From assembly GCA_001779115.1 (NCBI GenBank), contig MFJF01000005.1, positions 142,888-206,887 on the forward strand: a DNA stretch of 64,000 bases, read 5' to 3'. Position numbers and translations under genes: made by a program. The number at the start of each line of letters is the position of its first letter. Within the stretch, counting starts at the first letter, position 1. Below are positions 31,874 to 43,117 of this stretch, one piece after another. This stretch comes from Candidatus Gottesmanbacteria bacterium RIFCSPHIGHO2_01_FULL_40_15. Its GTDB lineage: Bacteria > Patescibacteriota > Microgenomatia > 2-02-FULL-39-11. The notes beneath the pieces were generated by a model. It was given only the letters and a program-made list of their open reading frames with translations. It did not search any database and had not been told where the DNA came from.

Positions 31874-32344
31874 TTACTTGACGAGAGTTTTTCCCAGATT
31901 ATCCGCCCAGGAAGCCAATTTTTCTGAATTAGTCTGCTGGTCGAGATAAAATCCGTCTATTTTCAATGAATCAACCGCCAATATCCCTTCCAAATCTTTA
32001 ACAAACTGCTCCAGATGATTAACCGCTCCGCAAAAATACGTATAGGATGAATCTCCCAGTCCTAAAACGGCGAATTTTTTACCGGTTATTTTCTTACCTT
32101 TAAAAAGCTCCATAAACGGCCGGTAATCAGGATGAGGTTGTCCCTCTAAACCTTCATAATCCCAAGTGGAAGAGGCCAGAATTACGGCATCGGCATCAGT
32201 CAGTTCTTCCGGTTGAGTATCACGGACTTCCTTCATTGTCACCTGCAAATTTTGACTCATCAGATGTTCCTGAACTATTTGGGAGGCTAACTGTGTTCCG
32301 CCTGAATTGGTGGCATAGACAAGCAGAATATTCATATTATTCAT
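31874..32344 (-). CDS. Flavodoxin
   Basis: Start set at the internal MNNMNILLVYA (the ORF-track extension runs into the SOS promoter). Short-chain flavodoxin pattern (LVYATNSGGT...SSTWDYEG...). Confidence 0.8.
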   Translation of the reverse strand: MNNMNILLVYATNSGGTQLASQIVQEHLMSQNLQVTMKEVRDTQPEELTDADAVILASSTWDYEGLEGQPHPDYRPFMELFKGKKITGKKFAVLGLGDSSYTYFCGAVNHLEQFVKDLEGILAVDSLKIDGFYLDQQTNSEKLASWADNLGKTLVK

Positions 32345-32378
32345 ATTACAATACCTGCCCCCCGGTGACAAGCGACTC

Positions 32379-32407
32379 TTGACAGGTGAACGATCGTTCA
32401 CTATAAT
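32379..32407 (+). promoter_or_regulatory. Consensus sigma-70 promoter (TTGACA-N17-TATAAT) with LexA/Cheo-type SOS box TGAACGATCGTTCA (32387-32400) in the spacer
   Basis: Read directly. The -35 and -10 are exact consensus with a 17-nt spacer. The spacer carries a perfect 14-bp palindrome matching the Gram-positive-type LexA box GAAC-N4-GTTC. It is upstream of the small-ORF/lexA/Y-polymerase operon. Confidence 0.65.
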
Positions 32408-32597: not shown

Positions 32598-33170
32598 ATG
32601 AAGCTTGAAACAGCCAAAAATTTAATCAGAAAATTCTTCCGGCAACAGAAAAGACTGCCTTCCTATCAGGAGATGTGCCGCCTTTTCGGTTTTGCCTCCA
32701 AACAGTCCAGTTTCCGCCTGGCGAAAAAACTTGTTGAGGAAGGCACCTTAAAGAAGGACGATAAAGGCAGACTTGTTCCCGGACGTTTATTTTCCGCTCT
32801 GCCTATTGCCGGAATAATTGCCGCCGGCATGCCGAGAGATGCTTCGGAGACTCTTTTAGATTCATTATCTTTTGACGATTATCTGGTGAAAAAACCGGGG
32901 AATTCCTACCTGCTGCGGGTATCGGGCGACTCCATGATTGAAGCCGGCATTAATGAGGGTGACCTGGTGGTAGTTGAGAAGGATAAATTGCCGGGAGAAG
33001 GCGATGTGGTAGTGGCTTTTATAGACGATGAATTTACCCTCAAGCATTTTTCCCGAAAAAATAGCAGAATAGCCCTGTTTCCGGCGAATAAAAAATATCC
33101 GGTGCTCTACCCCAGAAATCAACTGTCGATTTTCGGCACGGTCGTTGCAGTAATCCGGAAATACCACTGA
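32598..33170 (+). CDS. lexA: LexA repressor (S24 peptidase)
   Basis: 190 aa. N-terminal wHTH, cleavage-site region AG (IIAAGMP), Ser (GDSM) and Lys (LKHF) of the S24 catalytic dyad. Confidence 0.9.
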   Translation: MKLETAKNLIRKFFRQQKRLPSYQEMCRLFGFASKQSSFRLAKKLVEEGTLKKDDKGRLVPGRLFSALPIAGIIAAGMPRDASETLLDSLSFDDYLVKKPGNSYLLRVSGDSMIEAGINEGDLVVVEKDKLPGEGDVVVAFIDDEFTLKHFSRKNSRIALFPANKKYPVLYPRNQLSIFGTVVAVIRKYH

Positions 33171-33204
33171 TAATAATTTTTCCCGCCACGGAGGTCACCG
33201 TTTT

Positions 33205-33468
33205 ATGAGTGAAGTCATCAATGAAAAAATCAGCGTTATCTCTTTTTATGACAGGAATAAAGGCAAGAGTTGGCCTGTTAAGTTTTTTTGGCAGGGAAGA
33301 TCCTACAAAATCCGGCAGGTAGGCTATCATTGGCCCGCCAGAATAGGAAGGAAACTGGTTCATATTTATTCTGTTGTGGCCGAAAATAACACCTCATTTA
33401 AACTGGTGCATGATACGGAAACGCTTCACTGGATTTTGGAGGAGGTTATCGATGAATTTGCCACTTAA
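33205..33468 (+). CDS. Hypothetical 87-aa protein translationally coupled to Y-family polymerase (possible YolD/UmuD-functional-analogue)
   Basis: Overlaps the polymerase start by 17 bp. A GGAGG for the polymerase lies inside its 3' end. No recognisable motif. Proposed role comes from position only. Confidence 0.4.
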   Translation: MSEVINEKISVISFYDRNKGKSWPVKFFWQGRSYKIRQVGYHWPARIGRKLVHIYSVVAENNTSFKLVHDTETLHWILEEVIDEFAT

Positions 33469-34705
33469 CCGGAATCGCCCTGCCATTATGCATATTGATC
33501 TTAATTCCTGCTTTGCCTCAGCTGAACAGCAGGCTTATCCGGTTTTGCGGGGAAAACCTCTGGTCATTGCGGCATATACCACACCGGGAGGCTGCGTTGT
33601 CGCCCCTTCGGTTGAAGCTAAACAATTCGGCATAAAAACCGGCATGACGGTGCGGGATGCCAGACTCCTTTGTAAAGATATTATCGTCCGCGACCCTGAT
33701 CCCCAACTTATCCGTGATATCCATCTCAAATTCAGGAAAGTCTTATCCGATTACTCGCCGAATCTTACCCCCAAATCAATTGACGAACTGGTTATAGATT
33801 TTGAAGGGACATTGAGCTTTAAAAGAGGACTTGTTGAGATCGGAAAAGAAATGAAACAGCGGATAAAAAAAGAAGTCGGTGAATGGATTTCCTGCAATAT
33901 CGGCATAGCCACCAACCGGTTCCTGGCGAAACTGGCCGCATCTTTGCATAAACCCGACGGACTGGACATTGTCACCGATAAAAATTTAAGAGAAGTTTAT
34001 GCGTCCCGCACCCTGACGGATCTTAACGGCATTAATACGCGTTATGAGGCGCGGCTGAACGCATGCGGCATATTTACTCCCTTACAGTTTCTTAACGCTT
34101 CTTTGGATATTCTTAAAAAAAGAGTCTTTAAAAGCATCAACGGTTACTACTGGTATTTGAGACTGAGGGGCTGGGAGATAGACGCTGTTGAATTTGCCCG
34201 AAAAAGTTACGGACAGTCATATGCTTTAAAGGAGCAGACGGATGATCCGAAAAAATTAATCCGGTTACTTATGAAGCTTTGCGAAAAAATGGGCCGGAGA
34301 CTCAGAAAGAGAAACTATCAGGCATACGGAATTCATGTGGCTTTAGTTTATACGGACATGACTTACTGGCATATGGGAAGAACCCTTCAGATTCCCCTTT
34401 ATTCAACTGCTGACCTTTACAGAAAAGCAGTCTGGATTTTTAACCGGCAGCCCCAACAAAAAAAAGTCAGGGATTTGGCGGTAAGCTGCTTTCATCTTGA
34501 AAGTACCCAACCGGAACAGCTGGATCTGTTTGATTCGGAGATGAAAAACAATAAAAATGTCATTAAAGCGGTTGATGCGATTAACGACAAATACGGAGAA
34601 CTTATCGTTACTCCGGCCCTGATGATGGGAATGAAAAACGTGATAATTGACAGAATTGCCTTCGGGGGGGTCAGCGAACTGGAAGATATATATTTAGCCC
34701 GATAA
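33452..34705 (+). CDS. Y-family translesion DNA polymerase (DinB/UmuC-like)
   Basis: Start at the internal ATG with a GGAGG RBS. IMHIDLNSCFASAEQ (catalytic D, FxS, E) N-terminus, fingers/palm/little-finger architecture, 417 aa. Confidence 0.85.
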   Translation: MNLPLNRNRPAIMHIDLNSCFASAEQQAYPVLRGKPLVIAAYTTPGGCVVAPSVEAKQFGIKTGMTVRDARLLCKDIIVRDPDPQLIRDIHLKFRKVLSDYSPNLTPKSIDELVIDFEGTLSFKRGLVEIGKEMKQRIKKEVGEWISCNIGIATNRFLAKLAASLHKPDGLDIVTDKNLREVYASRTLTDLNGINTRYEARLNACGIFTPLQFLNASLDILKKRVFKSINGYYWYLRLRGWEIDAVEFARKSYGQSYALKEQTDDPKKLIRLLMKLCEKMGRRLRKRNYQAYGIHVALVYTDMTYWHMGRTLQIPLYSTADLYRKAVWIFNRQPQQKKVRDLAVSCFHLESTQPEQLDLFDSEMKNNKNVIKAVDAINDKYGELIVTPALMMGMKNVIIDRIAFGGVSELEDIYLAR

Positions 34706-34777: not shown

Positions 34778-35398
34778 TTATTTTTTTATCGCTTCTTCGA
34801 CGGCTTTGTCCAGATCGGTACGGGAAAAGAGATTCAGTTTTTTGCCGTTTAAAAAAAAGGTAGGAGTGGCGTCAACCCCGAATTTTCTGCCGTCTGTAAG
34901 ATCACGGTTAATCTTATCCTGATATTTTTTCTCTTTATAGGCTGCTTCAAAATTTTCTTTATCAAGACCCAACTTTTCAGCGGCTTCAAGAAGAAATTGC
35001 TCAGACAAATTTTCCTGATTTTCAAAAATATAATCATGCATTTCCCAAAATTTACCCTGTTCTCCGGCGGCTTCGGCTGCGAGGGCTGCCGGCCAAGCCT
35101 GTTCATGCTGATCCAAGGGAAAATGCCGGTATGCAAAAACCAGATTATCCTTATTGTCCTCCACAACGTTTTTCACCTGGGGATAAAACGATCCGCAGGC
35201 AGGACACTGGAAATCGGAAAATTCAATCAGACAGTTTCTCGCTTTTTCATTTCCTTTTTTATAAGAATCTGAAGTGAGAATTTCCTGACAAGTGAAAGCC
35301 GGAGCGGGCCGGGACAGGAAAAATATTCCTCCTATAACCAGAATTACCGTTACCAGGACGATACCGATTAAAAATTTTGATTCTCCGCTTAATTTCAC
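34778..35398 (-). CDS. DsbA-family thiol:disulfide oxidoreductase (thioredoxin fold), membrane-anchored
   Basis: 206 aa. N-terminal TM and the CPAC active site in an FSDFQCPACGSFYP context. Confidence 0.8.
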   Translation of the reverse strand: MKLSGESKFLIGIVLVTVILVIGGIFFLSRPAPAFTCQEILTSDSYKKGNEKARNCLIEFSDFQCPACGSFYPQVKNVVEDNKDNLVFAYRHFPLDQHEQAWPAALAAEAAGEQGKFWEMHDYIFENQENLSEQFLLEAAEKLGLDKENFEAAYKEKKYQDKINRDLTDGRKFGVDATPTFFLNGKKLNLFSRTDLDKAVEEAIKK

Positions 35399-35838
35399 TT
35401 TGTCCGCCTTTCCAGTTGATACATTTTAAGACCAATAATAAAGATTATCAACATATTCAAAGCAGATATAGCGCACCAGGTACAAACAGCTTTAATATAA
35501 AATATTTCCGTATAAGTAAACCAACCGACAAATAATACTCCGAAAACGGCAATAGCCAGGATTGCTTTCAGAAGTTTTAAGTCTTGGGAAACCGATCTGG
35601 CAAAGGTGAGAATCATCAACACAAAATAGCCGATCAAACCGACCAGGGGTACAGGTATGCCCAAGGGGTAGCTGTAAGGACTTTTTCTGACTATTTCACA
35701 ACCTTCATTGACGCAGACAATTGATGTTTTTTTTATAAAACCGTAAAGCACATAAACGGCTATTATTACGCCGATTATCGACAGGATAAAAACTATCCTA
35801 TTAAGAACTTTTTTTGTTAATTTAATATTTTCAGCCAT
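35395..35838 (-). CDS. Vitamin K epoxide reductase (VKOR)-family protein
   Basis: 147 aa. Four TM helices, loop Cys pair (CVNEGC) and TM4 CxxC (CTWC). Overlaps the dsbA-like start by 4 bp, the classic VKOR-DsbA pairing. Confidence 0.75.
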   Translation of the reverse strand: MAENIKLTKKVLNRIVFILSIIGVIIAVYVLYGFIKKTSIVCVNEGCEIVRKSPYSYPLGIPVPLVGLIGYFVLMILTFARSVSQDLKLLKAILAIAVFGVLFVGWFTYTEIFYIKAVCTWCAISALNMLIIFIIGLKMYQLERRTK

Positions 35839-35888: not shown

Positions 35889-36101
35889 ATGTGTTTTTCA
35901 ATCCCCTACCGAGTTGAAAAAATTGTAAATAAAACAGCAATTCTTGAAGGCGGAAAAAAAGCCGGAGTTGATGAAAATCTCAAAGTAAAAAAAGGCGATT
36001 ATTTGCAAATCGCCGGGAATATGGCTGTCAGGAAAATTTCTGCCGGAGAGGGACTTAAGATCAGAAGATTAATTAAAACTTTATACAATAATGGAAAATA
36101 A
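35889..36101 (+). CDS. hypC: [NiFe]-hydrogenase maturation factor HypC/HupF family
   Basis: 70 aa beginning MCFSIP (the MC(L/I)(A/G)(I/V)P N-terminus with Cys2 essential in HypC) and a hVGxxA-like C-terminal half. Confidence 0.75.
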   Translation: MCFSIPYRVEKIVNKTAILEGGKKAGVDENLKVKKGDYLQIAGNMAVRKISAGEGLKIRRLIKTLYNNGK

Positions 36102-37008
36102 TATCAAAAAAGGGGTTATTCTGTCTTTAATAACGGCGGTTATATCGGGAATTGCAATTTTTTATAACAAACAGGTTTTGGTAAAGGGCATCGATCCTTT
36201 AATTTTCAACATCATAAAAAACGGCGGTACCGCGTTAATTTTATCCTTTTTCATTTTGGGAAGAAATCCCCGCATATCAAGCTTGTCAAGGCGGCACCTT
36301 GACAAGTTTGACAAGAGGCTGATACTGATCGGATTGATCGGAGGAAGTCTGCCTTTTATCCTTTATTTTCAGGGTTTAACCGAATCAACGCCGGTTGTGG
36401 CCAATTTAATCCATAAAACACTTTTTATATGGGTAGCCATATTTTCGGTTTCTGTTTTAAAGGAAAAACTGTCATATTATCAAATAATCGGATACCTTTT
36501 AATTATTTTTGCAAATTTTTTTATCGGCGGACTTACCCAATTTAAATTTGGAGTTCCGGAAATTTTCATTTTATCGGCCACTCTTTTATGGTCTTTTGAA
36601 AATATAATTGCCAAAATTGTACTAAAAAAAACAGAAAGCAGCACTGTTGCCTGGGGCAGGATGACATTTGGTACTGTATTTCTTATTTTTATTGCCGTTA
36701 TTTCGGGTAAAGCACAGCTCATTTGGCAGGTTGCGCCTGAACAAATTCTACCAATTTCAGGAAGTATCATTCTGCTGACTTTATACGTAATTACCTGGTA
36801 TAAAGCCCTTAAATATGCTCCGGCAACACTGGTTACGTCGATTCTGATCCTTGCCACACCGGTCACCAATTTTTTATCGGCAGTAACAATTACCCGTGAT
36901 TTTTCACCGATAATTTCCGTTAACTCTTTGGCTGTATTGACCGGTGTTATCCTGATTAGTGTTATTACTTCGGGAAAGTATCAAAGTGCCAGGAAATATT
37001 ATCAGTAA
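36091..37008 (+). CDS. EamA/DMT-superfamily transporter
   Basis: 305 aa. 10 TM helices in two EamA repeats. Overlaps the hypC end by 11 bp. Confidence 0.75.
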   Translation: MENNIKKGVILSLITAVISGIAIFYNKQVLVKGIDPLIFNIIKNGGTALILSFFILGRNPRISSLSRRHLDKFDKRLILIGLIGGSLPFILYFQGLTESTPVVANLIHKTLFIWVAIFSVSVLKEKLSYYQIIGYLLIIFANFFIGGLTQFKFGVPEIFILSATLLWSFENIIAKIVLKKTESSTVAWGRMTFGTVFLIFIAVISGKAQLIWQVAPEQILPISGSIILLTLYVITWYKALKYAPATLVTSILILATPVTNFLSAVTITRDFSPIISVNSLAVLTGVILISVITSGKYQSARKYYQ

Positions 37009-37753
37009 CGGCAAACCGATTTGCGGACTTTACCAATGCTGCCGGTTTTCTTATCCGCCAAATTCTCTTTCGTTATGCGGACCGGCTAAAGCTTCAAACC
37101 TCCGGCATTATTCACTAACCGGCTTAACTGATATTGGAACCGCAGAAATTCTGTCACAATTTTCAACTCTTTATCCTTACTTGTGTTTAATTGCATATGA
37201 AAATAAAATCAGCGATCCCTTTGACAATCGGGTAGTTGAAGCCTACTGGCTAGGCAACTCATTACTATACAAAATTAAAAAATCCGCTTTTTATAATCTT
37301 CTAAATGAGAAGCTGTCCTTAAGAAAAAAACTAAACCGGAGTGATTTGGAGATTATTTCCAATAAATTCCGGTATGAATCGGTTCCCCATCATTCCTTCC
37401 ATGTTTTAAACATATATATAAGGACCGGACATTTTGATTTACCGCACACATTAGAAACCATGGACGCCTGTCTAGTCAATTACGGAAAAATTATTTCCAT
37501 CTCCAAGGGAAAAATCAGAATCCGGACACAAAGACTGAAACAATTCAAGGGAAAGCTTTATATGGAAAAAAACTGCATAAAAGAAATAAGTAAACAGGGA
37601 GCACATGACATCCTCTTTCAATCATTATCGGTTGGTGATGATGTCAGTTACCATTGGGGATTTCTGACATCAAGGTTAACTCTGAGGCAACGCGCTAATC
37701 TGAAATATTTTACCGGGTTATCCGTCAATCTGGCCAATGCGAAAAATTTATGA
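36959..37753 (+). CDS. Hypothetical Cys-rich protein in hydrogenase-maturation operon
   Basis: 264 aa. N-terminal CGLYQCCRFSYPPNSLSLCGP (4 Cys in 18 aa). No recognised family. The only in-frame ATG overlaps the EamA gene by 50 bp, so the start is uncertain. The stop overlaps the endopeptidase start by 4 bp. Confidence 0.4.
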   Translation: MLLLRESIKVPGNIISNGKPICGLYQCCRFSYPPNSLSLCGPAKASNLRHYSLTGLTDIGTAEILSQFSTLYPYLCLIAYENKISDPFDNRVVEAYWLGNSLLYKIKKSAFYNLLNEKLSLRKKLNRSDLEIISNKFRYESVPHHSFHVLNIYIRTGHFDLPHTLETMDACLVNYGKIISISKGKIRIRTQRLKQFKGKLYMEKNCIKEISKQGAHDILFQSLSVGDDVSYHWGFLTSRLTLRQRANLKYFTGLSVNLANAKNL

Positions 37754-38133
37754 AAAGAATAATTTATTGCCTCGGCAATCCACTTATTCAAAAGGACAGT
37801 CTGCCTTTAAAATTAATGCCTCATTTAAAGGCAATTTTACCTTCTTATAATTTTGAAGTATTTGATCCGACTGAGGTAAGCGACATTTCTGATAATTCAA
37901 TATTTCTAGATACAGTTACGGGAATTAATAAAGTTAAAATATTTACCGGCCTGAAGTATTTTTTACTTTCACCCCGCAACAGTGTTCACGACTATGATTT
38001 ACCCCTGTTATTGGGATTAATGCTTAAACTGGGAAAAATAAAAAAATTCAAAATCATCGGTGTCCCGGCAAATTATTCTTTTGAAGAAGCATATGAATCC
38101 GTAAAAGGATGTCTTAAAGATAACGGAATTTAA
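37750..38133 (+). CDS. Hydrogenase maturation endopeptidase (HycI/HybD family)
   Basis: 127 aa. N-terminal (L/C)LGxGN-like CLGNPLIQKD with a conserved Asp, and a later SVHDYD His region. Converges on and overlaps the large-subunit gene, whose product carries a short extension after DPCxxCxxH. Confidence 0.6.
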   Translation: MKRIIYCLGNPLIQKDSLPLKLMPHLKAILPSYNFEVFDPTEVSDISDNSIFLDTVTGINKVKIFTGLKYFLLSPRNSVHDYDLPLLLGLMLKLGKIKKFKIIGVPANYSFEEAYESVKGCLKDNGI

Positions 38134-39406
38134 GGAAATGCGAGGCGCAACTCATACAGGGATCATACGCCCTGACTATTGATTCAATTGTGTGTTCCAG
38201 GGATGATTTGTCCTTAATGGCCGCCATATTATCAATTATGAATTGGCGGATAGATTCTTCAATGCCGATCTGATTTTGTCCGGTGGGAACAACTATCCGG
38301 CCGTTTTTAATCTTTCCGCCTGCGTCAACTTCCAAACGGTAGTAAAGTGTACCGCGCGGAGCTTCAACAACCCCAACACCAATGCTTTCCTTTCTTTGAA
38401 GAACAACCTGACTCTCGGGATAAATTTTGATATTATTGATAATTTCCAGTGAAGAATCAACGGCGTGAAGAATTTCAATGGCCTGGGCTAAATTATTGTG
38501 ATAAATATTTTGTGACGGAAATATTTTGAGATATTTTTCCGTATCTTTTACAGTTCTTTTGTGAAGCTTATCTTTGGCCAGGTTCAAACGGGCCAAAGCC
38601 CCGACCATGTAGGTTTTACCCAAATATTTGTAGCCTGTCGCATGGGAATAAGGAATAATAACTTTTTCCAGATAATCTCCGAATTTTTTCTCCCCGACAA
38701 TATCTCCGTTACTACTAAAAAGAGAACCGGACAGGAACGACAGTTCATCATCAATAAGTGAGGCATACAGTAAATTTTTTCTGAGTAAACGGCCGTCTTT
38801 TTTAAAAAACAGGTCTATTAAATCTAATACCAGAGGTCTTATTTTTTCCAATTGTTCGCCCGTCTTTTTTAAATCATCAGTTAAGGGTAGCCTGGTAAAT
38901 CCCCCGGGGATAATAAAGGGTGCATGGACACTTCTGCCGCCGACTGTTTTACCCAGTTGATTACCGGCTGCTTTTACAATAAACGCATTATGGAGCATCT
39001 GATGCTCTAATGAATCACTTTCATCAAAATCCAGTATTGAATCCTTACCGAAAAGATCAGGCAGTACAAAAACATACAAATGAAGAGCATGATCCCTGAT
39101 AAACAGACCGTAATTTAATAGTTTTCTTAAATTCACTGTCTGAGGGCTGACTGAAACAGCCAAAGCATTTTCAACAGCTTTAACGGCACATAAAAGATGA
39201 GCATTTGAGCAAGTACCGCAGATACGGGCAGTCAACTGGGGAAGCGCGGCAATATCTTTTCCCCTTATAGCCTGAGTATAAAACCTCTTATATTCGGCAA
39301 TGGAAAATTTTATATCCTGAAGTTTTCCGTTCCTAATTTTTATCTCACAGGAAGCTTTGCCTTCAATTTTAGATATATCCGATAATGACAGATCAAGATT
39401 ATGCAT
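38114..39406 (-). CDS. [NiFe]-hydrogenase large subunit (group-3-type L1/L2 motifs)
   Basis: 430 aa. L1 motif RICGTCSNAH and L2 motif DPCMSCASH, followed by a 7-aa C-terminal extension (FLKFRYL). Confidence 0.9.
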   Translation of the reverse strand: MHNLDLSLSDISKIEGKASCEIKIRNGKLQDIKFSIAEYKRFYTQAIRGKDIAALPQLTARICGTCSNAHLLCAVKAVENALAVSVSPQTVNLRKLLNYGLFIRDHALHLYVFVLPDLFGKDSILDFDESDSLEHQMLHNAFIVKAAGNQLGKTVGGRSVHAPFIIPGGFTRLPLTDDLKKTGEQLEKIRPLVLDLIDLFFKKDGRLLRKNLLYASLIDDELSFLSGSLFSSNGDIVGEKKFGDYLEKVIIPYSHATGYKYLGKTYMVGALARLNLAKDKLHKRTVKDTEKYLKIFPSQNIYHNNLAQAIEILHAVDSSLEIINNIKIYPESQVVLQRKESIGVGVVEAPRGTLYYRLEVDAGGKIKNGRIVVPTGQNQIGIEESIRQFIIDNMAAIKDKSSLEHTIESIVRAYDPCMSCASHFLKFRYL

Positions 39407-39409
39407 GGG

Positions 39410-39889
39410 TTATTTAATGCCGAATTCTTTAAAATAACGGTTAATTAACTCTAAAAATTGAGCTTCATTCATCGGACAGCCCGCCACCGTATCATCAACC
39501 CGGACAATATCAGCAACTTTTTTTACATTCTGAGTATAATCAAAAGTAATCAGGACATTATTAATCTCCCCTTTCAAATCTTTTTGAAAAGTATTTCTTT
39601 GTGATGAAGGCATTCCTATTACGGCACATGATCCGACAGCCACAAGCTTTTTAGCGTTATTTCGGATTGTTAACAGTTTTTTTTCCTGGGATTTTGAAGT
39701 TATTGCTCCTTCAATGAAAGCCACATCCAAATCAACAGGATTGCTTTTTTTCTGCAAAATAAGCATAGAACGGAAATCGATCAGATTCCTCCATTCCAAA
39801 TAATAATCATTTAACAGTTCGGTGAAAATAATTGTCGAGTCTTCACTGCAGGAAAAAGAAAACCAACCGATTTTAAGTTTATTATTCAT
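39410..39889 (-). CDS. [NiFe]-hydrogenase small subunit, minimal NuoB/HycG-like (proximal-cluster only, 3 Cys)
   Basis: 159 aa. Motifs FSCSED (NuoB CCxxE position with one Cys replaced by Ser), VGSCAVIGM (NuoB GxCAxxGG-like) and AGCP (GCPP-like). Start is 4 nt after... on the - strand it directly precedes the large subunit. Confidence 0.7.
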   Translation of the reverse strand: MNNKLKIGWFSFSCSEDSTIIFTELLNDYYLEWRNLIDFRSMLILQKKSNPVDLDVAFIEGAITSKSQEKKLLTIRNNAKKLVAVGSCAVIGMPSSQRNTFQKDLKGEINNVLITFDYTQNVKKVADIVRVDDTVAGCPMNEAQFLELINRYFKEFGIK

Positions 39890-39985: not shown

Positions 39986-41494
39986 ATGAAGTTAAAAGTC
40001 AGGGGCAAAATAATTATTGCCTTGGTTTTTAGTACCATAATCTTTACAGCTTTGAATTTGACCGCATTTATTCCGGGCGGGAATATTAATCGGCTATTGA
40101 CTTTCGCAGGCGGTGTCATCCTCATGACCGGTCTTACCGCAATAGTATATTTATTTTTTAATTCAGCCATAAACAAATTTAAACAGTCTTTAGAAAAAGT
40201 AGAAAAAAACATTCTCAATACCGATGCTTCCATGAGTAAAAATTTAGATATTGAAGATATGGCAACATCATTTGATTTACTTATTAATCAGGTCCAGGAA
40301 AAAGAAGGCAATTTAAAAAATGAAGAAAAAAAGATGGAATCCATGCTGCAGGCATTATCTGAGGCCGTAATAGCTATTGACGAAAGTTTCCGGATACTGG
40401 TCTTCAATAAAACCGCGGAATTATTTACCGGTTTTACAGCTCAAACTGTCATGGGAAAACATATTGATGAAATAGTACAACTTTACGGCGGAGACGAAAA
40501 AATCGTCTTATCCAATTATATCCAAAAGCCGGATGAACTGGCGTCCATTCACCGGGAAAGAGGCCTGCAGATTAAATCTCAATCGGAAAAAATATTTTAC
40601 GTTTCAATCGATGTGGCGCCTTTAGTCTTTGGGAGCGGAGAAAGCCACGGATATATTCTGACTTTTTATGATGAAACAAATCAAAAAGCGCTTGAAGAAA
40701 TGAAACTCGATTTCGTTTCAATGGCAGCTCATGAACTCAGAACCCCCCTAACAGTTATCAGAGGTTATGCCGAATTATTAAATTCCGAAATCGGGGAAAA
40801 ACTGTCTCCTGAACACCAGGAACATTTACACAGACTTTCTTATAATGCCAGCAATTTAGGCACTTTAATAGATAATCTTCTAAATGTGTCAAGAATAGAA
40901 AGAGGTTCATATAAAATCGAGCCTGTTCCGGTTGATCTTCTGTCTCTGGTCAGAAATACTGTAACCGACATGGTAGATCAGGCAAACAGTAAAGGGCAGA
41001 AACTTATATTTACAGAACCTGATGAAAAAGTGCCTCTTGTTTTGGCTGATCAATCAAGAATAAATCAGGTGTTAACTAACCTGATTACCAACGCAATTAC
41101 TTATACTCCGGTTGGTGAATCAATAACCGTTTCCATTTCAAGAAAAGATTCTTTTGTCGGTGTTACCGTAAAAGATACCGGAATTGGAATTCCTAAAGAA
41201 GCTTTATCCAAGCTGTTTACTAAATTTTTCCGGGTTTCAAGCGTACTGGAACAGGGTTCAAAAGGAACAGGATTGGGACTTTTTATTTCCAAATCAATTA
41301 TTTCCATGCACGGCGGAGACATTTCAGTTGACAGTGAACTGGGAAAAGGTTCAACATTTATTTTTACCCTGCCGATCGCAACAAATGTACCGGTTGACCA
41401 GTTAATCTCCCCTGCACCAATAGGAAGAACCGGAAAAGGAATTATGATTAATCCTGAAAGAATGGCCCAACGTATTTCCGGGGGTCAGTTATAA
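39986..41494 (+). CDS. Sensor histidine kinase (TM-PAS-HisKA-HATPase_c)
   Basis: 502 aa. Two N-terminal TMs, a PAS-like region, H-box AAHELRTPLTVIRGY, and N, G1 (DTGIGI) and G2 (GTGLGL) boxes. Confidence 0.85.
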   Translation: MKLKVRGKIIIALVFSTIIFTALNLTAFIPGGNINRLLTFAGGVILMTGLTAIVYLFFNSAINKFKQSLEKVEKNILNTDASMSKNLDIEDMATSFDLLINQVQEKEGNLKNEEKKMESMLQALSEAVIAIDESFRILVFNKTAELFTGFTAQTVMGKHIDEIVQLYGGDEKIVLSNYIQKPDELASIHRERGLQIKSQSEKIFYVSIDVAPLVFGSGESHGYILTFYDETNQKALEEMKLDFVSMAAHELRTPLTVIRGYAELLNSEIGEKLSPEHQEHLHRLSYNASNLGTLIDNLLNVSRIERGSYKIEPVPVDLLSLVRNTVTDMVDQANSKGQKLIFTEPDEKVPLVLADQSRINQVLTNLITNAITYTPVGESITVSISRKDSFVGVTVKDTGIGIPKEALSKLFTKFFRVSSVLEQGSKGTGLGLFISKSIISMHGGDISVDSELGKGSTFIFTLPIATNVPVDQLISPAPIGRTGKGIMINPERMAQRISGGQL

Positions 41495-41511
41495 TAGAAT
41501 TAGAAATCAAT

Positions 41512-42213
41512 ATGAAAACGATACTTATTGTTGAAGATGATTTTCATATCCAGGATATTTACCGGATGGCTTTTCTTAAAACCGGAAATTATTCCGTGGA
41601 AACAGCATCTGACGGCCAGGAAGCGTTGGTTAAATTAAGAGCTCATGTCTATGACCTGATTCTTTTGGATATCATGCTGCCAAAAGTTACCGGAATCGAT
41701 GTACTTCGGGCTATGAGGTCACCGAGTTCACCGACAAGAGATACGCCGATAATTCTTATTACGAATTTGGGCCAGGAAGACATAATAAAAGAGGCGTTTA
41801 AAATAGGTGCAGACGGTTATTTGATAAAAGCCCAATTTACACCAAATGATGTCGTGGCTGAAGTTGACGCGTTTTTCGAGCAAATGGCTCAAATAAAAGA
41901 ACAACCTACGCCGGCACAACAATCTTCCCCAGCAGCAGCAGCTTCGGTACTTGGAAATGATGAAAACACAGCCCCGACCCAGCCAACTCCGGTTATGACT
42001 CCGGCAGCCTCACAACCCGTTAATGAACAAAATTCAACAACGACGGCGCTATCAGGTAATAAATCGAGCTCTGATTCAGATCAAACAGTTTCATCAAATC
42101 CGATGGGACAAAATATGCCAAATGATACGCCAGTTCCTCCCCCGGAGTCAGCCGGTGAAAACCTTCCCGGTGATGGAAAAGCGGATATAAGTCCAGGTAA
42201 AACTTCCGTCTAA
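41512..42213 (+). CDS. Response-regulator receiver domain fused to ~110-aa Pro/Thr/Ser/Gln-rich disordered tail (no output domain)
   Basis: 233 aa. REC domain (DD...D52 in LLDIMLP...K) up to about residue 120, then a low-complexity tail. Confidence 0.8.
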   Translation: MKTILIVEDDFHIQDIYRMAFLKTGNYSVETASDGQEALVKLRAHVYDLILLDIMLPKVTGIDVLRAMRSPSSPTRDTPIILITNLGQEDIIKEAFKIGADGYLIKAQFTPNDVVAEVDAFFEQMAQIKEQPTPAQQSSPAAAASVLGNDENTAPTQPTPVMTPAASQPVNEQNSTTTALSGNKSSSDSDQTVSSNPMGQNMPNDTPVPPPESAGENLPGDGKADISPGKTSV

Positions 42214-42553: not shown

Positions 42554-43117
42554 TTATTTCTCTTTAATAAGAATAGGGACAAGCATCAGAACTATAATCA
42601 GAAGAAAAGCGGTCGCAGCCATCAACGGAATTGTTATATACCCCAGTTCCATGACAAAACTGTTAGAGCAGGATACGGAATAGCCGATTGTACTGCAGGG
42701 TAAGATAGACTGACCCCCTCTTTGAAGATAATAATGATAAAAGGCGATAACAATGCCGATTCCTGACAGGGTAATCAGGTAATCATTTATACTTTTGTCT
42801 TTTTTCCAAATCGCCAGGCTTAAAAGCAGCGGCATCGGATACATTAAAATCCGCTGAAACCAGCAGAGTTTACAGGGCTCAAAACCGGCTATTTCGGAAT
42901 AAAACAGACTGCCTAATGTTGCCGTCAGAGAGACTATTAAAGCCAAATGATAGGAATATTTTACTATTTTTCTAAAAATACTGTTTTTTACGAATTTAAG
43001 CTTTTTTTTATTCAGAAAATAAAAGAGGAAAATTACTAAAAATGAAATACCAATAACCTGTCCGAAAACCGTTAAAATCGCGAGTATCCGGTTGACTAAG
43101 AAAACTGACTGATTCAT
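42554..43117 (-). CDS. DsbB/BdbC-family disulfide bond formation protein
   Basis: 187 aa, 4 TM. CKLCWFQRILMYP matches the BdbC/DsbB CxLCWYQR active-site loop. Second Cys pair CSTIGYSVSC. Confidence 0.65.
   Translation of the reverse strand: MNQSVFLVNRILAILTVFGQVIGISFLVIFLFYFLNKKKLKFVKNSIFRKIVKYSYHLALIVSLTATLGSLFYSEIAGFEPCKLCWFQRILMYPMPLLLSLAIWKKDKSINDYLITLSGIGIVIAFYHYYLQRGGQSILPCSTIGYSVSCSNSFVMELGYITIPLMAATAFLLIIVLMLVPILIKEK

What the first reader, a model, noticed from the sequence alone, without database searches (positions are those of the whole stretch)
35889..38133. Hydrogenase-maturation operon carrying an EamA transporter and an unknown Cys-rich protein between hypC and the endopeptidase
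The gene order hypC - EamA/DMT transporter - 264-aa Cys-rich unknown (CGLYQCCRFSYPPNSLSLCGP) - HycI-like endopeptidase is tightly coupled. Three junctions overlap, by 11, 50 and 4 bp. Neither a DMT transporter nor this Cys-rich protein is part of the canonical Hyp machinery. Their placement suggests roles in metal (Ni/Fe) delivery or as a replacement for missing Hyp factors.
Basis: partly seen in the sequence, partly recalled or inferred. Interest (0 to 1): 0.6.

Follow-up and report, generated by a model that had tools for sequence, protein, structure and literature searches.

The report
Hidden HypC-like hydrogenase accessory protein
Beside a minimal [NiFe]-hydrogenase in a tiny CPR bacterium sits a conserved gene set (HypC, a membrane permease, a DUF6390 protein, a mini-protease); the DUF6390 protein contains a disguised HypC-like domain and sits in hydrogenase gene clusters from CPR bacteria to mycobacteria, so it is probably an overlooked helper of hydrogenase assembly.

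Summary
hypC-like (35889-36101), EamA/DMT permease (36091-37008), a 264-aa protein (36959-37753) and a 127-aa protein (37750-38133) overlap as described. They converge on a two-subunit 'hyd2' group-3b-related [NiFe]-hydrogenase (38114-39889, minus strand).

The 264-aa protein is Pfam DUF6390. "Cys-rich" overstates it: only C40 and C171 are conserved, together with H145, H148 and H232.

New here: its C-terminal half is a divergent HypC domain. C171 aligns with HypC's essential Cys and H232 with HypC's conserved His. Four independent tests agree.

The 127-aa protein has the HybD/HycI protease fold.

Synteny is strong. In 75 CPR species loci, EamA lies directly upstream in 64/71 and hydrogenase genes lie nearby in 61/66. 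Outside CPR, DUF6390 again sits among hydrogenase and hyp genes, often beside EamA or ABC importers. It occurs fused to EamA and to several DNA-binding domains.

In Mycobacterium and Sulfobacillus it coexists with hypC/D/E/F (plus hypA/B in Sulfobacillus), so it is an additional factor, not a general replacement.

Best reading: a HypC-superfamily protein that binds a metal or ligand and links transport to cofactor assembly. No paper in the searched library mentions it.

The parts
35889..36101 (+). Short HypC-like chaperone, 70 aa. It has the N-terminal MCFSIP motif and lacks the usual conserved His (GDYLQIAG).
   Evidence: Pfam HupF_HypC 27.1 bits against a 28.5 cutoff. The identical database protein P0282 carries a precomputed PF01455 hit. 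The gene is conserved at this position in CPR loci, 51/69 by single-sequence phmmer. Sequences are shown.
36091..37008 (+). EamA/DMT-family permease, 305 aa, belonging to a subfamily specific to hydrogenase loci.
   Evidence: Pfam EamA 100.9 bits with two repeats. No characterised-exporter model comes near its cutoff. It lies directly upstream of DUF6390 in 64/71 CPR loci and in 24/80 non-CPR loci. It is fused to DUF6390 in P0140 and L032. Conserved residues are charged or polar (N44, K109, E125, E170, K175, R190), with no conserved Cys or His.
36959..37753 (+). DUF6390 protein. It has an N-terminal all-helical domain (about residues 23-171) and a C-terminal divergent HypC-like OB barrel plus helix (about 171-259). 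The likely true start is the GTG at 36986.
   Evidence: Pfam PF19927, E 2.9e-45. AF2 model pLDDT 85.5. The top Foldseek PDB hit is HypC 2z1c. A family profile search of all PDB sequences returns only HypC chains. hhalign against HypC gives probability 94.4%, E 8.6e-8. PF01455 is hit by 32/102 members. Family-wide conserved residues are C40, H145, H148, C171, H232 and W233.
37750..38133 (+). Minimal [NiFe]-hydrogenase maturation endopeptidase-like protein, 127 aa.
   Evidence: AF2 pLDDT 84.3. The top five Foldseek PDB hits are four HybD/HycI-type hydrogenase maturation proteases plus 3pu6, an uncharacterised Wolinella protein, with E 6e-6 to 8.5e-4 and probability 1.0. D16, D54 and H80 are conserved. 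It is present exactly in the 46 CPR loci that carry a hyd2-type large subunit. Sequence-only tests are not significant.
38114..39406 (-). [NiFe]-hydrogenase large subunit, group-3b-related 'hyd2' type, 430 aa, with a 7-residue C-terminal tail after DPCMSCASH.
   Evidence: Pfam NiFeSe_Hases. The best NCBIfam matches are ShyA and HydA. C63, C66, C417, C420 and H423 are invariant in 48 relatives, and tails are 7-12 aa. The hyd2 description is in PMC7304191.
39410..39889 (-). Truncated hydrogenase small subunit, 159 aa, apparently with a single Fe-S cluster.
   Evidence: Pfam Oxidored_q6. C14, C88 and C138 are invariant. Position 15 is Cys in 38 of 47 sequences and Ser in 9, including this window. 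This matches the hyd2 small subunit, mean 164 aa.

Best explanation
The locus is a compact assembly module for a minimal two-subunit 'hyd2' [NiFe]-hydrogenase. It encodes a short HypC, an EamA/DMT permease, a DUF6390 protein and a small HybD/HycI-fold endopeptidase that would trim the 7-residue C-terminal tail of the large subunit.

Shown:
- DUF6390 is a two-domain protein whose C-terminal half is homologous to HypC. The family-invariant C171 and H232 sit at the positions of HypC's essential Cys and conserved His.
- The family is embedded in [NiFe]-hydrogenase and hyp gene clusters of very different lineages and hydrogenase groups.
- It is repeatedly paired with, or fused to, transporters and DNA-binding domains.

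Inferred:
- DUF6390 is cytoplasmic. In the fusions it hangs on the C-terminus of the 10-TM permease.
- It uses a Cys/His site (C40, H145, H148 from the helical domain; C171, H232 from the HypC-like domain) to bind a metal species, nickel or iron.
- In this operon it receives the cargo brought in by the EamA permease and passes it to HypC, the rest of the Hyp machinery or the large subunit.
- In the HTH-fused relatives the same domain senses that ligand to control the adjacent importer genes.

My confidence that DUF6390 is a HypC-superfamily hydrogenase accessory factor is about 0.85. My confidence in the metal hand-off from the permease is about 0.35.
For: HypC homology:
- The Foldseek top PDB hit is HypC 2z1c_B (probability 1.0, TM 0.64 on the target).
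- A profile of 102 diverse members searched against 177,635 PDB sequences returns only three hits, all HypC, aligning H232 to the HypC His and C171 to the HypC N-terminal Cys.
- hhalign against 47 HypC sequences gives probability 94.4%, E 8.6e-8, covering C171 to the end.
- PF01455 is the only recurrent second Pfam family, hit by 32/102 members.
- The model shows five strands followed by a helix after residue 174.

Conserved site:
- C40 99%, H145 100%, H148 90%, C171 100%, H232 99% across 119 sequences.
- C40, C171 and H232 motifs are retained in all the fused proteins that cover them; the HHxFHV (H145/H148) motif pattern was found in four of the six.

Context:
- Identical synteny in Gottesmanbacteria.
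- In 75 CPR species loci, EamA is adjacent in 64/71 and hydrogenase genes are present in 61/66, with both hyd1- and hyd2-type enzymes.
- In non-CPR loci, 34/39 of those at least 5 kb long carry hydrogenase or Hyp markers.
- One example is a canonical HyhBGSL-protease-HypC-EamA-DUF6390 operon. Another is an actinobacterial-type cluster with HypC-DUF6390-ABC-HypB.
- HypA lies directly upstream in many loci.
- In M. intracellulare DUF6390 overlaps hypD by 4 bp. In Sulfobacillus it lies between hypE/tatA and hydA.

Transporter link:
- Two EamA-DUF6390 fusions, one sitting in a hyd2 locus.
- SBP-dependent ABC importers are alternative neighbours. The SBP_bac_5 proteins match NikA best, below cutoff.

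Sensor-type use:
- Fusions to PadR, GntR, XRE and ArsR-type DNA-binding domains, next to ABC importers.

Protease substrate:
- All large subunits keep the four Cys ligands and a 7-12 aa tail.
Against: - No metal binding has been shown. I could not read model coordinates, so clustering of C40, H145 and H148 with C171 and H232 is untested. The C40 loop has low model confidence.
- In canonical HypC the essential Cys must be the N-terminal residue. Here it is internal, so the chemistry may differ.
- The EamA subfamily has no conserved Cys, His or Met. Its conserved residues are charged or polar, as in metabolite carriers. Many DMT proteins are exporters.
- About half of the larger non-CPR loci (20/39) have no adjacent transporter, and neither do the Mycobacterium and Sulfobacillus clusters. 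The transporter is therefore an optional partner.
- The ABC substrate classes are uncertain. All NCBIfam matches fall below their cutoffs, and the SBP_bac_1/11 proteins match a putative 2-aminoethylphosphonate binder best.
- A few CPR loci carry DUF6390 with no hydrogenase within 10 kb (L050, L055, L062).
Confidence: 0.5

Rival explanations
1. DUF6390 is mainly a ligand sensor or regulator rather than a chaperone. As a stand-alone or EamA-fused protein it gates the permease. As an HTH fusion it controls transcription of importer genes in response to the metal or to the maturation state. It does not deliver anything to the enzyme.
For: There are fusions to four different DNA-binding domain families, placed directly upstream of ABC importer genes. 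There is a physical fusion to the permease's cytoplasmic end. A 2Cys/2-3His ligand set resembles nickel sensors such as InrS and NikR (from my own knowledge of those families, not tested here).
Against: Most members have no DNA-binding domain and sit inside hyp operons with no transporter nearby, for example overlapping hypD in M. intracellulare. Homology to HypC, a cofactor-carrying chaperone, fits a carrier role at least as well.
Confidence: 0.25
2. In CPR bacteria the DUF6390 protein, together with the short His-less HypC, replaces the HypD/HypE/HypF scaffold and ligand-synthesis machinery. This would be a stripped-down route to the Fe(CN)2CO centre.
For: No HypD, HypE or HypF signature motifs occur in the 64-kb window or in any of the 79 CPR-type loci, about 1.2 Mb in total. 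The helical domain contributes an extra Cys and His next to a HypC-like Cys/His, loosely recalling the HypC-HypD shared iron site. PMC7304191 remarks that hyd2 may 'support function with unknown genes'.
Against: Elsewhere DUF6390 coexists with hypF, hypC, hypD and hypE in the same cluster. Motif scans of +/-10 kb cannot show genome-wide absence. The helical domain shows no detectable similarity to HypD, HypE or HypF. Nothing in it suggests ATP-dependent cyanide synthesis.
Confidence: 0.07
3. The cargo is not a metal. DUF6390 and the permease handle a small organic molecule needed for, or produced by, cofactor ligand chemistry, such as a CO or CN precursor or a by-product. The helical domain would be catalytic or ligand-binding for that compound.
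For: The EamA subfamily's conserved residues are those of metabolite carriers, with no soft-metal ligands. The SBP_bac_1/11 neighbours match a putative aminoethylphosphonate binder best. The origin of the CO ligand in anaerobes is an open question (general knowledge).
Against: Invariant Cys and His residues placed at HypC's metal-ligand positions point to metal chemistry. The NikA-like SBPs and an adjacent Nramp in one locus fit metals. No enzyme-like fold was detected for the helical domain.
Confidence: 0.13
4. The association is inherited gene order with no functional meaning. EamA and DUF6390 are unrelated passengers next to a hydrogenase.
For: Three CPR loci have DUF6390 without hydrogenase genes within 10 kb.
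Against: The linkage survives rearrangement (hyd1 versus hyd2 layouts). It crosses phylum boundaries (CPR, Actinomycetota, Bacillota) and at least four hydrogenase types. It also includes gene fusions and HypC homology.
Confidence: 0.03

Closest known systems
HypC/HybG/HupF hydrogenase assembly chaperones (Pfam PF01455)
   Same: The C-terminal half of DUF6390 has the same OB barrel followed by a helix. It has a conserved Cys at the start of the first strand (C171) and a conserved His in the GD-x-V-x-x-H-x-G motif (H232). Both align to HypC's functional residues. Like HypC it lives in hyp operons, often next to a bona fide hypC or hypD.
   Different: About 150 residues of a new all-helical domain, carrying its own invariant Cys and His residues, precede the Cys. 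The Cys is therefore internal, not the processed N-terminus. The barrel is longer than in HypC. DUF6390 occurs in addition to HypC, not instead of it. It is fused to transporters and DNA-binding domains, which is not known for HypC (my own knowledge, not tested here).
HybD/HycI/HyaD large-subunit endopeptidases (peptidase A31, Pfam PF01750)
   Same: The 127-aa protein has the same predicted fold. It has Asp/Asp/His residues at the expected metal-binding positions. Its apparent substrate, the large subunit, carries a C-terminal tail after DPCxxCxxH.
   Different: It is about 30 residues shorter and has no significant sequence match to PF01750, to PDB sequences or to canonical HycI profiles. It is restricted to hyd2-type loci.
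CPR 'hyd2' group-3b-related [NiFe]-hydrogenase (Jaffe et al. 2020, PMC7304191)
   Same: It has a truncated small subunit (159 aa against a reported mean of 164). There are no beta or gamma diaphorase subunits nearby. A hypC-like family lies in the neighbourhood.
   Different: The section of that paper read here (section 9), term searches of its main text and a search of its supplements name neither the EamA, DUF6390 nor protease genes. These lie on the opposite strand from the large subunit, which the paper's context plots excluded. The link to HypC homology and to non-CPR clusters is new here.
One-component metal sensors such as NikR and InrS, and dedicated nickel importers (NikABCDE). This comparison is from my own knowledge, not tested here.
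   Same: A Cys/His-rich ligand domain joined to a DNA-binding domain sits next to importer genes whose SBP matches NikA best.
   Different: The sensing domain is HypC-like plus a novel helical domain, unrelated to the NikR or CsoR/RcnR folds. Metal specificity is unknown.
EamA/DMT permeases. Characterised members are mostly metabolite exporters such as YddG and RhtA. CntI of Pseudomonas aeruginosa exports the metallophore pseudopaline (from my own knowledge).
   Same: Two EamA repeats.
   Different: It falls far below the cutoffs of the characterised-exporter models. It forms its own conserved subfamily tied to hydrogenase loci. An import role is suggested only by analogy, because SBP-dependent ABC importers occupy the same position in other loci.

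Membership tests
DUF6390 (Pfam PF19927) | Whole-protein score above the Pfam gathering threshold of 25 bits | tested here: met
   155.1 bits, E 2.9e-45, covering residues 27-262. All 102 diverse relatives match.
HypC/HupF superfamily (C-terminal domain of the 264-aa protein) | OB-fold beta barrel followed by a C-terminal helix | tested here: met
   The AF2 model has strands 174-182, 185-196, 199-211, 228-232 and 235-240, then helix 242-259. The top Foldseek PDB hit is HypC 2z1c_B. Other OB folds score similarly, so fold alone is not decisive.
HypC/HupF superfamily (C-terminal domain of the 264-aa protein) | Significant sequence or profile similarity to HypC | tested here: met
   hhalign probability 94.4%, E 8.6e-8 over 77 columns. 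The only PDB sequence hits are HypC, at E 0.019, 0.021 and 0.34. PF01455 is hit by 32/102 members, best 5.5e-5. The window protein itself does not reach PF01455.
HypC/HupF superfamily (C-terminal domain of the 264-aa protein) | Essential Cys as the N-terminal residue (Met-Cys start) | tested here: not met
   The homologous Cys (C171, 100% conserved) is internal, preceded by about 150 residues. It would be N-terminal only if the protein were cleaved, which was not tested.
HypC/HupF superfamily (C-terminal domain of the 264-aa protein) | Conserved His in the GD-x-V-x-x-H-x-G motif (E. coli HypC His51) | tested here: met
   H232 is 99% conserved and aligns with the HypC His.
HypC/HupF (the 70-aa ORF 35889-36101) | Met-Cys N-terminus, size of 70-110 aa, and the PF01455 threshold | tested here: inconclusive
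   It starts MCFSIP and is 70 aa. Pfam gives 27.1 bits against a 28.5 cutoff, and TIGR00074 gives 22.7 against 48. The identical database protein has a precomputed PF01455 hit. The conserved His is replaced (GDYLQIAG).
Hydrogenase maturation endopeptidase (HybD/HycI, PF01750) | Characteristic alpha/beta fold | tested here: met
   pLDDT 84.3. Of the top five Foldseek PDB hits, four are HybD/HycI-type hydrogenase maturation proteases and one is 3pu6, an uncharacterised Wolinella protein. Probability is 1.0 and TM 0.52-0.61.
Hydrogenase maturation endopeptidase (HybD/HycI, PF01750) | Sequence match to the family model | tested here: not met
   No Pfam or NCBIfam hit. The PDB profile search gives only 3pu6 at E 1.3. 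hhalign against canonical HycI gives E 0.24.
Hydrogenase maturation endopeptidase (HybD/HycI, PF01750) | Acidic/acidic/His metal-binding triad | tested here: inconclusive
   D16, D54 and H80 are invariant or nearly so. D54 and H80 fall opposite the Asp and His of canonical HycI, but in a non-significant alignment.
Hydrogenase maturation endopeptidase (HybD/HycI, PF01750) | A cognate large subunit with a C-terminal extension after DPCxxCxxH | tested here: met
   The window tail is FLKFRYL. Tails are 7-12 aa in 49/50 hyd2 relatives. The protease gene is present in exactly the 46 hyd2-type loci.
EamA/DMT transporter family | Two EamA repeats | tested here: met
   PF00892 at 100.9 bits with two stretches.
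Characterised amino-acid/metabolite exporters (YddG; TIGR00950) | Score above the equivalog cutoff | tested here: not met
   26.2 bits against 230.2, and 19.1 against 300.
CPR hyd2 group-3b-related [NiFe]-hydrogenase (PMC7304191) | Large subunit with both CxxC ligand pairs, a small subunit truncated to about 164 aa, and no adjacent beta/gamma subunits | tested here: met
   C63, C66, C417 and C420 are invariant, and the small subunit is 159 aa. No 4Fe-4S ferredoxin motif occurs anywhere in the 64-kb window.
Canonical Hyp machinery (HypA-F) in this genome | Presence of hypD, hypE, hypF, hypA and hypB | not testable with these tools
   There are no signature motifs in the window or in 79 CPR-type loci, except HypA/HypB in L016 and L024. 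The rest of the genome could not be read.

The most novel reading that the evidence does not exclude
DUF6390, with its partner transporter (EamA here; Nik-like or Fbp-like ABC systems elsewhere), is a dedicated supply line that captures the metal for the [NiFe] cofactor and hands it to HypC/HypD or the large subunit. Most interestingly, that metal could be the iron destined for the Fe(CN)2CO group, whose route to the HypCD scaffold is unknown. In hyd2-bearing CPR bacteria the pair of a His-less HypC and a HypC-like DUF6390 might even support a reduced maturation pathway.
Probability: 0.2. Interest if true: 0.8.

Novelty: new variant of a known kind. Interest (0 to 1): 0.62.

Why it matters
[NiFe]-hydrogenase maturation is usually described as a closed set: HypA-F plus an endopeptidase. 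Open questions remain about where the cofactor's iron comes from and how metal supply is coordinated.

This work shows that a family known only as a DUF is a disguised HypC relative. The family has about 820 clusters at 50% identity and is abundant in soil metagenomes. It accompanies hydrogenase and hyp genes from ultra-small CPR bacteria to mycobacteria and Sulfobacillus. That defines a concrete, testable candidate for an additional maturation or metal-trafficking factor, with cultured carriers available for genetics.

It also supplies named candidate partner genes for the enigmatic two-subunit CPR 'hyd2' enzyme. The literature says only that hyd2 may be supported by 'unknown genes'.

Tried and rejected
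- Model coordinates are not exposed, so I could not measure distances between the conserved Cys and His residues.
- The 102-sequence alignment was too diverse for locus scanning. Closer alignments were used instead.
- Sequence-only identification of the 127-aa protein failed. Only the predicted fold supports it.
- hhalign of DUF6390 against the His-less CPR HypCs alone was weak (E 0.0023). The decisive result needed canonical HypCs harvested from the loci.
- Short 'N-domain only' database entries looked like truncated or frame-shifted fragments, not evidence for a split gene.
- Context look-ups for P0195 and P0173 hit contigs too short to be informative.
- Literature searches for DUF6390, PF19927, EamA+hypC+hydrogenase and CPR hydrogenase maturation found nothing relevant. 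A lead that M. smegmatis Hyd3 (MSMEG_3931-3927) continues into hypC-EamA-DUF6390 could not be verified.
- 'Replacement of HypA/B' is rejected because HypA/HypB co-occur with DUF6390.
- 'Replacement of HypC' is rejected because a separate HypC is nearly always adjacent.


Full report
**What is there.** The four + strand ORFs exist exactly as described: a 70-aa ORF (35889-36101), a 305-aa ORF (36091-37008), a 264-aa ORF (36959-37753) and a 127-aa ORF (37750-38133). They overlap by 11, 50 and 4 bp. The 50-bp figure depends on the first GTG. An in-frame GTG at 36986 preceded by GGGAAAG gives 255 aa and a 23-bp overlap, which is the length of the 98%-identical database protein P0001. The last gene's 3' end overlaps, by 20 bp, a convergent pair encoding a [NiFe]-hydrogenase large subunit (430 aa, 38114-39406) and a short small subunit (159 aa, 39410-39889). 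Upstream and divergent lie VKOR and DsbA genes. A HypC protein 100% identical to the window's is annotated from a Candidatus Gottesmanbacteria (CPR) genome from the Rifle aquifer.

**Family assignments.** Pfam gives HupF_HypC at 27.1 bits (cutoff 28.5) for the 70-aa protein, which starts MCFSIP. It gives EamA at 100.9 bits with two repeats for the permease, and DUF6390 (PF19927) at 155 bits, E 2.9e-45, for the 264-aa protein. The 127-aa protein has no hit. In NCBIfam the large subunit is closest to group 3b sulfhydrogenase alpha subunits. The permease is far below the cutoffs of characterised exporters, at 26 bits against 230 and 19 against 300. The hydrogenase matches the CPR 'hyd2' clade of Jaffe et al. 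2020 (PMC7304191). That clade is group-3b-related, has a small subunit truncated to about 164 aa and no adjacent beta or gamma subunits, and is said possibly to 'support function with unknown genes'. In 48 hyd2 relatives the four Ni-Fe cysteines and the His of DPCxxCxxH are invariant, and a 7-12 residue tail follows. The small subunit keeps three invariant Cys plus a Cys/Ser position. No ferredoxin-type motif occurs anywhere in the 64-kb window.

**The 127-aa protein.** Sequence methods fail on it. An AlphaFold model has pLDDT 84.3. Its five best PDB matches are T. kodakarensis HybD, E. coli HycI (two chains), a thaumarchaeal hydrogenase maturation peptidase and 3pu6, an uncharacterised Wolinella protein. 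All have probability 1.0 and E 6e-6 to 8.5e-4. D16, D54 and H80 are conserved. Across CPR loci it is present exactly where the large subunit is hyd2-type, 46 of 46. I therefore accept it as a minimal maturation endopeptidase on fold and context, not on sequence.

**The 264-aa protein.** It belongs to a large family. There are 1084 hits in the 90% clustered database and 821 representatives at 50% identity, 519 of them below 1e-10. 'Cys-rich' is misleading. Of its seven Cys only C40 and C171 are conserved. Across 119 diverse members the conserved set is C40 (99%), H145 (100%), H148 (90%), C171 (100%), H232 (99%) and W233 (98%). C237 is at 72% and is Thr in the window protein. The model (pLDDT 85.5, pTM 0.85) shows an all-helical domain (about 23-171), then five strands and a long helix (174-259).

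**Hidden HypC domain.** Four independent tests agree.
- The best Foldseek PDB hit of the whole model is HypC of T. kodakarensis (2z1c_B; probability 1.0, TM 0.64 on the target). Other OB folds follow closely.
- A profile of 102 diverse members searched against all 177,635 distinct PDB sequences returns only three hits, all HypC (E 0.019, 0.021, 0.34). It aligns H232 (slHWg) to the HypC His (vHtGfa), and aligns C171 (CriswGkv) to the N-terminal Cys (CLAVPGKV).
- Scanning the 102 members singly against Pfam, PF01455 is the only recurrent second family, hit by 32 members with a best E of 5.5e-5.
- hhalign of the family against 47 HypC sequences harvested from the loci gives probability 94.4%, E 8.6e-8, over 77 columns. 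These run from C171 (opposite HypC Cys2) through H232 (opposite the HypC His) into the terminal helix.

DUF6390 is therefore a HypC-superfamily protein whose key Cys is internal, preceded by a novel helical domain with its own invariant Cys and His. The neighbouring short HypC of Gottesmanbacteria keeps the N-terminal Cys but lacks the His (GDYLQIAG). HypCs next to DUF6390 in non-CPR bacteria are canonical.

**Synteny in CPR.** Three independent Gottesmanbacteria contigs show the identical layout: VKOR/DsbA, then HypC-EamA-DUF6390-protease, then the convergent large and small subunits. A scan of one genome per GTDB species returned 75 loci, all apparently CPR by record title or composition. 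In these, EamA lies directly upstream in 64/71 assessable loci and hydrogenase subunits lie within the fetched stretch in 61/66. HypC was detected in 51/69, an undercount because a single short query was used. Two hydrogenase types are involved. One is hyd2-like, convergent and with the protease. The other is hyd1-like, with a small subunit of about 250 aa, in different orientations and without the mini-protease. So the HypC-EamA-DUF6390 module persists across rearrangement. Three loci have DUF6390 alone among unrelated genes.

**Beyond CPR.** A metagenome scan seeded with high-GC members matched more than 578 stretches, mostly from soil and peat. Of the 39 loci at least 5 kb long, 34 carry hydrogenase or Hyp markers. 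EamA is directly upstream in 24/80 loci and an ABC system is adjacent in 16/80. Twenty of the 39 larger loci have no adjacent transporter. HypA often lies immediately upstream.

Annotated examples:
- L161 is a canonical group 3b operon: beta, gamma, delta and alpha subunits, then protease, HypC, EamA and DUF6390.
- L125 is an actinobacterial-type cluster: small subunit, 615-aa large subunit, NifU, DUF5947, DUF6084, protease, HypC, DUF6390, an SBP_bac_11-type ABC system and HypB.
- L083 has DUF6390-HypC-ABC on a 2.2-Mb contig.
- L084 has a Nik/Opp-like ABC, HypC, XRE-DUF6390, a second Nik/Opp-like ABC, then NifU/Rieske, HycI and a large subunit.
- L082 has GntR-DUF6390 followed by an ABC system, with a hydrogenase small subunit 8 kb away.
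- L080 has PadR-DUF6390, a 394-aa unknown protein and a NikA-like ABC system.

**Cultured organisms.** On a Mycobacterium intracellulare subsp. chimaera plasmid the gene, annotated 'DUF6390 family protein', overlaps hypD by 4 bp. The order there is hypF-hypC-hypC-SIS-hypE-hypC-hypD-DUF6390, downstream of hydrogenase structural genes. On the Sulfobacillus acidophilus plasmid it lies between hypF-hypC-x-hypD-hypE-tatA and hydA, the large subunit, cytochrome b, the protease, hupF and then hypA-hypB. DUF6390 therefore accompanies at least four hydrogenase types together with the core Hyp genes (hypF/C/D/E in both clusters, plus hypA/B in Sulfobacillus). It is an extra factor, not a generic substitute.

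**Fusions.** EamA-DUF6390 fusions occur in a Kerfeldbacteria genome (P0140). There the fused gene occupies the usual place in a hyd2 locus, with an Nramp gene upstream. A second fusion occurs in another Patescibacteria MAG (L032). Other members carry N-terminal XRE, PadR, GntR or ArsR-type DNA-binding domains. All of them keep the C40, C171 and H232 motifs where the sequence covers those regions, and four of the six matched the HHxFHV (H145/H148) pattern.

**How it most likely works.**

*Shown:* DUF6390 is a HypC-superfamily protein genetically tied to [NiFe]-hydrogenase and hyp genes. It is optionally but repeatedly tied to membrane transporters, and it is reused as the effector domain of one-component regulators.

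*Inferred:*
- The invariant Cys/His set forms a binding site for a metal species.
- The protein is cytoplasmic, because in the fusions it is attached to the permease C-terminus.
- In this operon it takes what the EamA permease brings in and passes it to HypC, the Hyp machinery or the large subunit.
- The mini-protease then removes the 7-residue tail.
- An import direction for EamA is inferred only because SBP-dependent importers occupy the same position elsewhere.

Nickel is favoured by the NikA-like SBPs (best NCBIfam matches, below cutoff) and by the 2Cys/2-3His chemistry. Iron is favoured by the homology to HypC, which carries the iron moiety, and by the Fbp-like ABC architecture, although its SBP matches a putative aminoethylphosphonate binder best.

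*Against a bare-metal cargo:* the EamA subfamily conserves charged and polar residues (N44, K109, E125, E170, K175, R190) and no Cys or His.

**Rivals.**
- A purely regulatory or sensor role, about 0.25.
- A non-metal cargo or ligand-chemistry role, about 0.13.
- A CPR-specific replacement of HypD/E/F, about 0.07. No HypD/E/F motifs were found in the window or in about 1.2 Mb of CPR loci, but whole genomes could not be checked, and DUF6390 coexists with HypDEF elsewhere.
- Meaningless synteny, about 0.03.

**Novelty.** No paper in the searchable library mentions DUF6390 or PF19927, or the combination of EamA, hypC and hydrogenase. Section 9 of Jaffe et al. and term searches of its main text and supplements name only a hypC-like family near hyd1 and hyd2. 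RefSeq labels the protein only 'DUF6390 family protein'. I therefore rate it as a new variant of a known kind: a HypC-superfamily accessory protein with a new architecture and new partners. Its function remains to be shown.

Noticed in passing
window 34778-35838 (- strand) and 42554-43117 (- strand); also L027, L028, L031, L035, L037: Thiol-disulfide genes flank the hydrogenase module. VKOR plus DsbA lie divergently upstream, and a DsbB homologue lies 3 kb downstream. In other CPR lineages, VKOR/DsbA genes sit next to the hyd2 cluster in different arrangements, for example directly after the small subunit in L028 and L037. DsbA-like hits also recur near hyd1-type loci. This hints at a link between the minimal hydrogenase and disulfide redox chemistry.
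   Followed up: partly
window 39410-39889 (- strand): The hyd2 small subunit has only three invariant Cys (C14, C88, C138). The fourth proximal-cluster position is Cys in 38/47 relatives but Ser in this window (FSCSED). This suggests a single, possibly unusually ligated, Fe-S cluster and no obvious electron-transfer partner subunit.
   Followed up: partly
window 31874-32401 (- strand): A flavodoxin gene lies about 3.5 kb from the module. No ferredoxin-type CxxCxxCxxxCP motif exists anywhere in the 64-kb window. Flavodoxin is a candidate redox partner for the two-subunit hydrogenase.
   Followed up: no
window 39986-42213 (+ strand): A PAS-domain histidine kinase and a response regulator with a long low-complexity Pro/Ser/Thr-rich tail sit immediately beyond the small-subunit gene. 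L001 has a response regulator, and L002 a Crp-type regulator, at the equivalent place.
   Followed up: no
window 35889-36101; CPR loci L001-L016: The short HypC of Gottesmanbacteria lacks the otherwise conserved His (GDYLQIAG in place of GDWVLVHxGFA), while the adjacent DUF6390 keeps a His at the homologous position. HypCs next to DUF6390 in non-CPR bacteria are canonical. This may reflect a division of labour between the two HypC-like proteins.
   Followed up: partly
L024 8829-9784 and L016 7174-8167: Two CPR loci carry HypB and HypA (ENVGNLICP and MHE motifs) directly upstream of hypC. L024 has HypA/HypB but no EamA gene, whereas L016 has both.
   Followed up: no
L166 6262-7512: An Nramp-family divalent-metal transporter gene lies just upstream of the fused EamA-DUF6390 gene in the Kerfeldbacteria hyd2 locus.
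   Followed up: no
L080 2466-3650 (also L081): A 394-aa protein with no Pfam or NCBIfam match sits between PadR-DUF6390 and a NikA-like ABC transporter operon.
   Followed up: no
L167 11088-11798 (M. intracellulare plasmid NZ_CP012886.2): The mycobacterial hyp cluster contains three HypC-family genes plus an unusually long one (about 236 aa) annotated HypC/HybG/HupF, as well as SIS-domain and NHL-repeat genes. It sits next to a RuBisCO/CBB operon.
   Followed up: no
L050 8844-9770: In one of the rare 'orphan' DUF6390 loci, with no hydrogenase within 10 kb, the gene directly upstream encodes a 308-aa protein with no Pfam hit. Its size is that of the EamA partner.
   Followed up: no
window 32598-34705 (+ strand): A LexA-like S24 peptidase gene is followed by a small ORF and a Y-family (ImpB/MucB) DNA polymerase gene, an SOS mutagenesis-type cassette just upstream of the DsbA/VKOR pair.
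   Followed up: no
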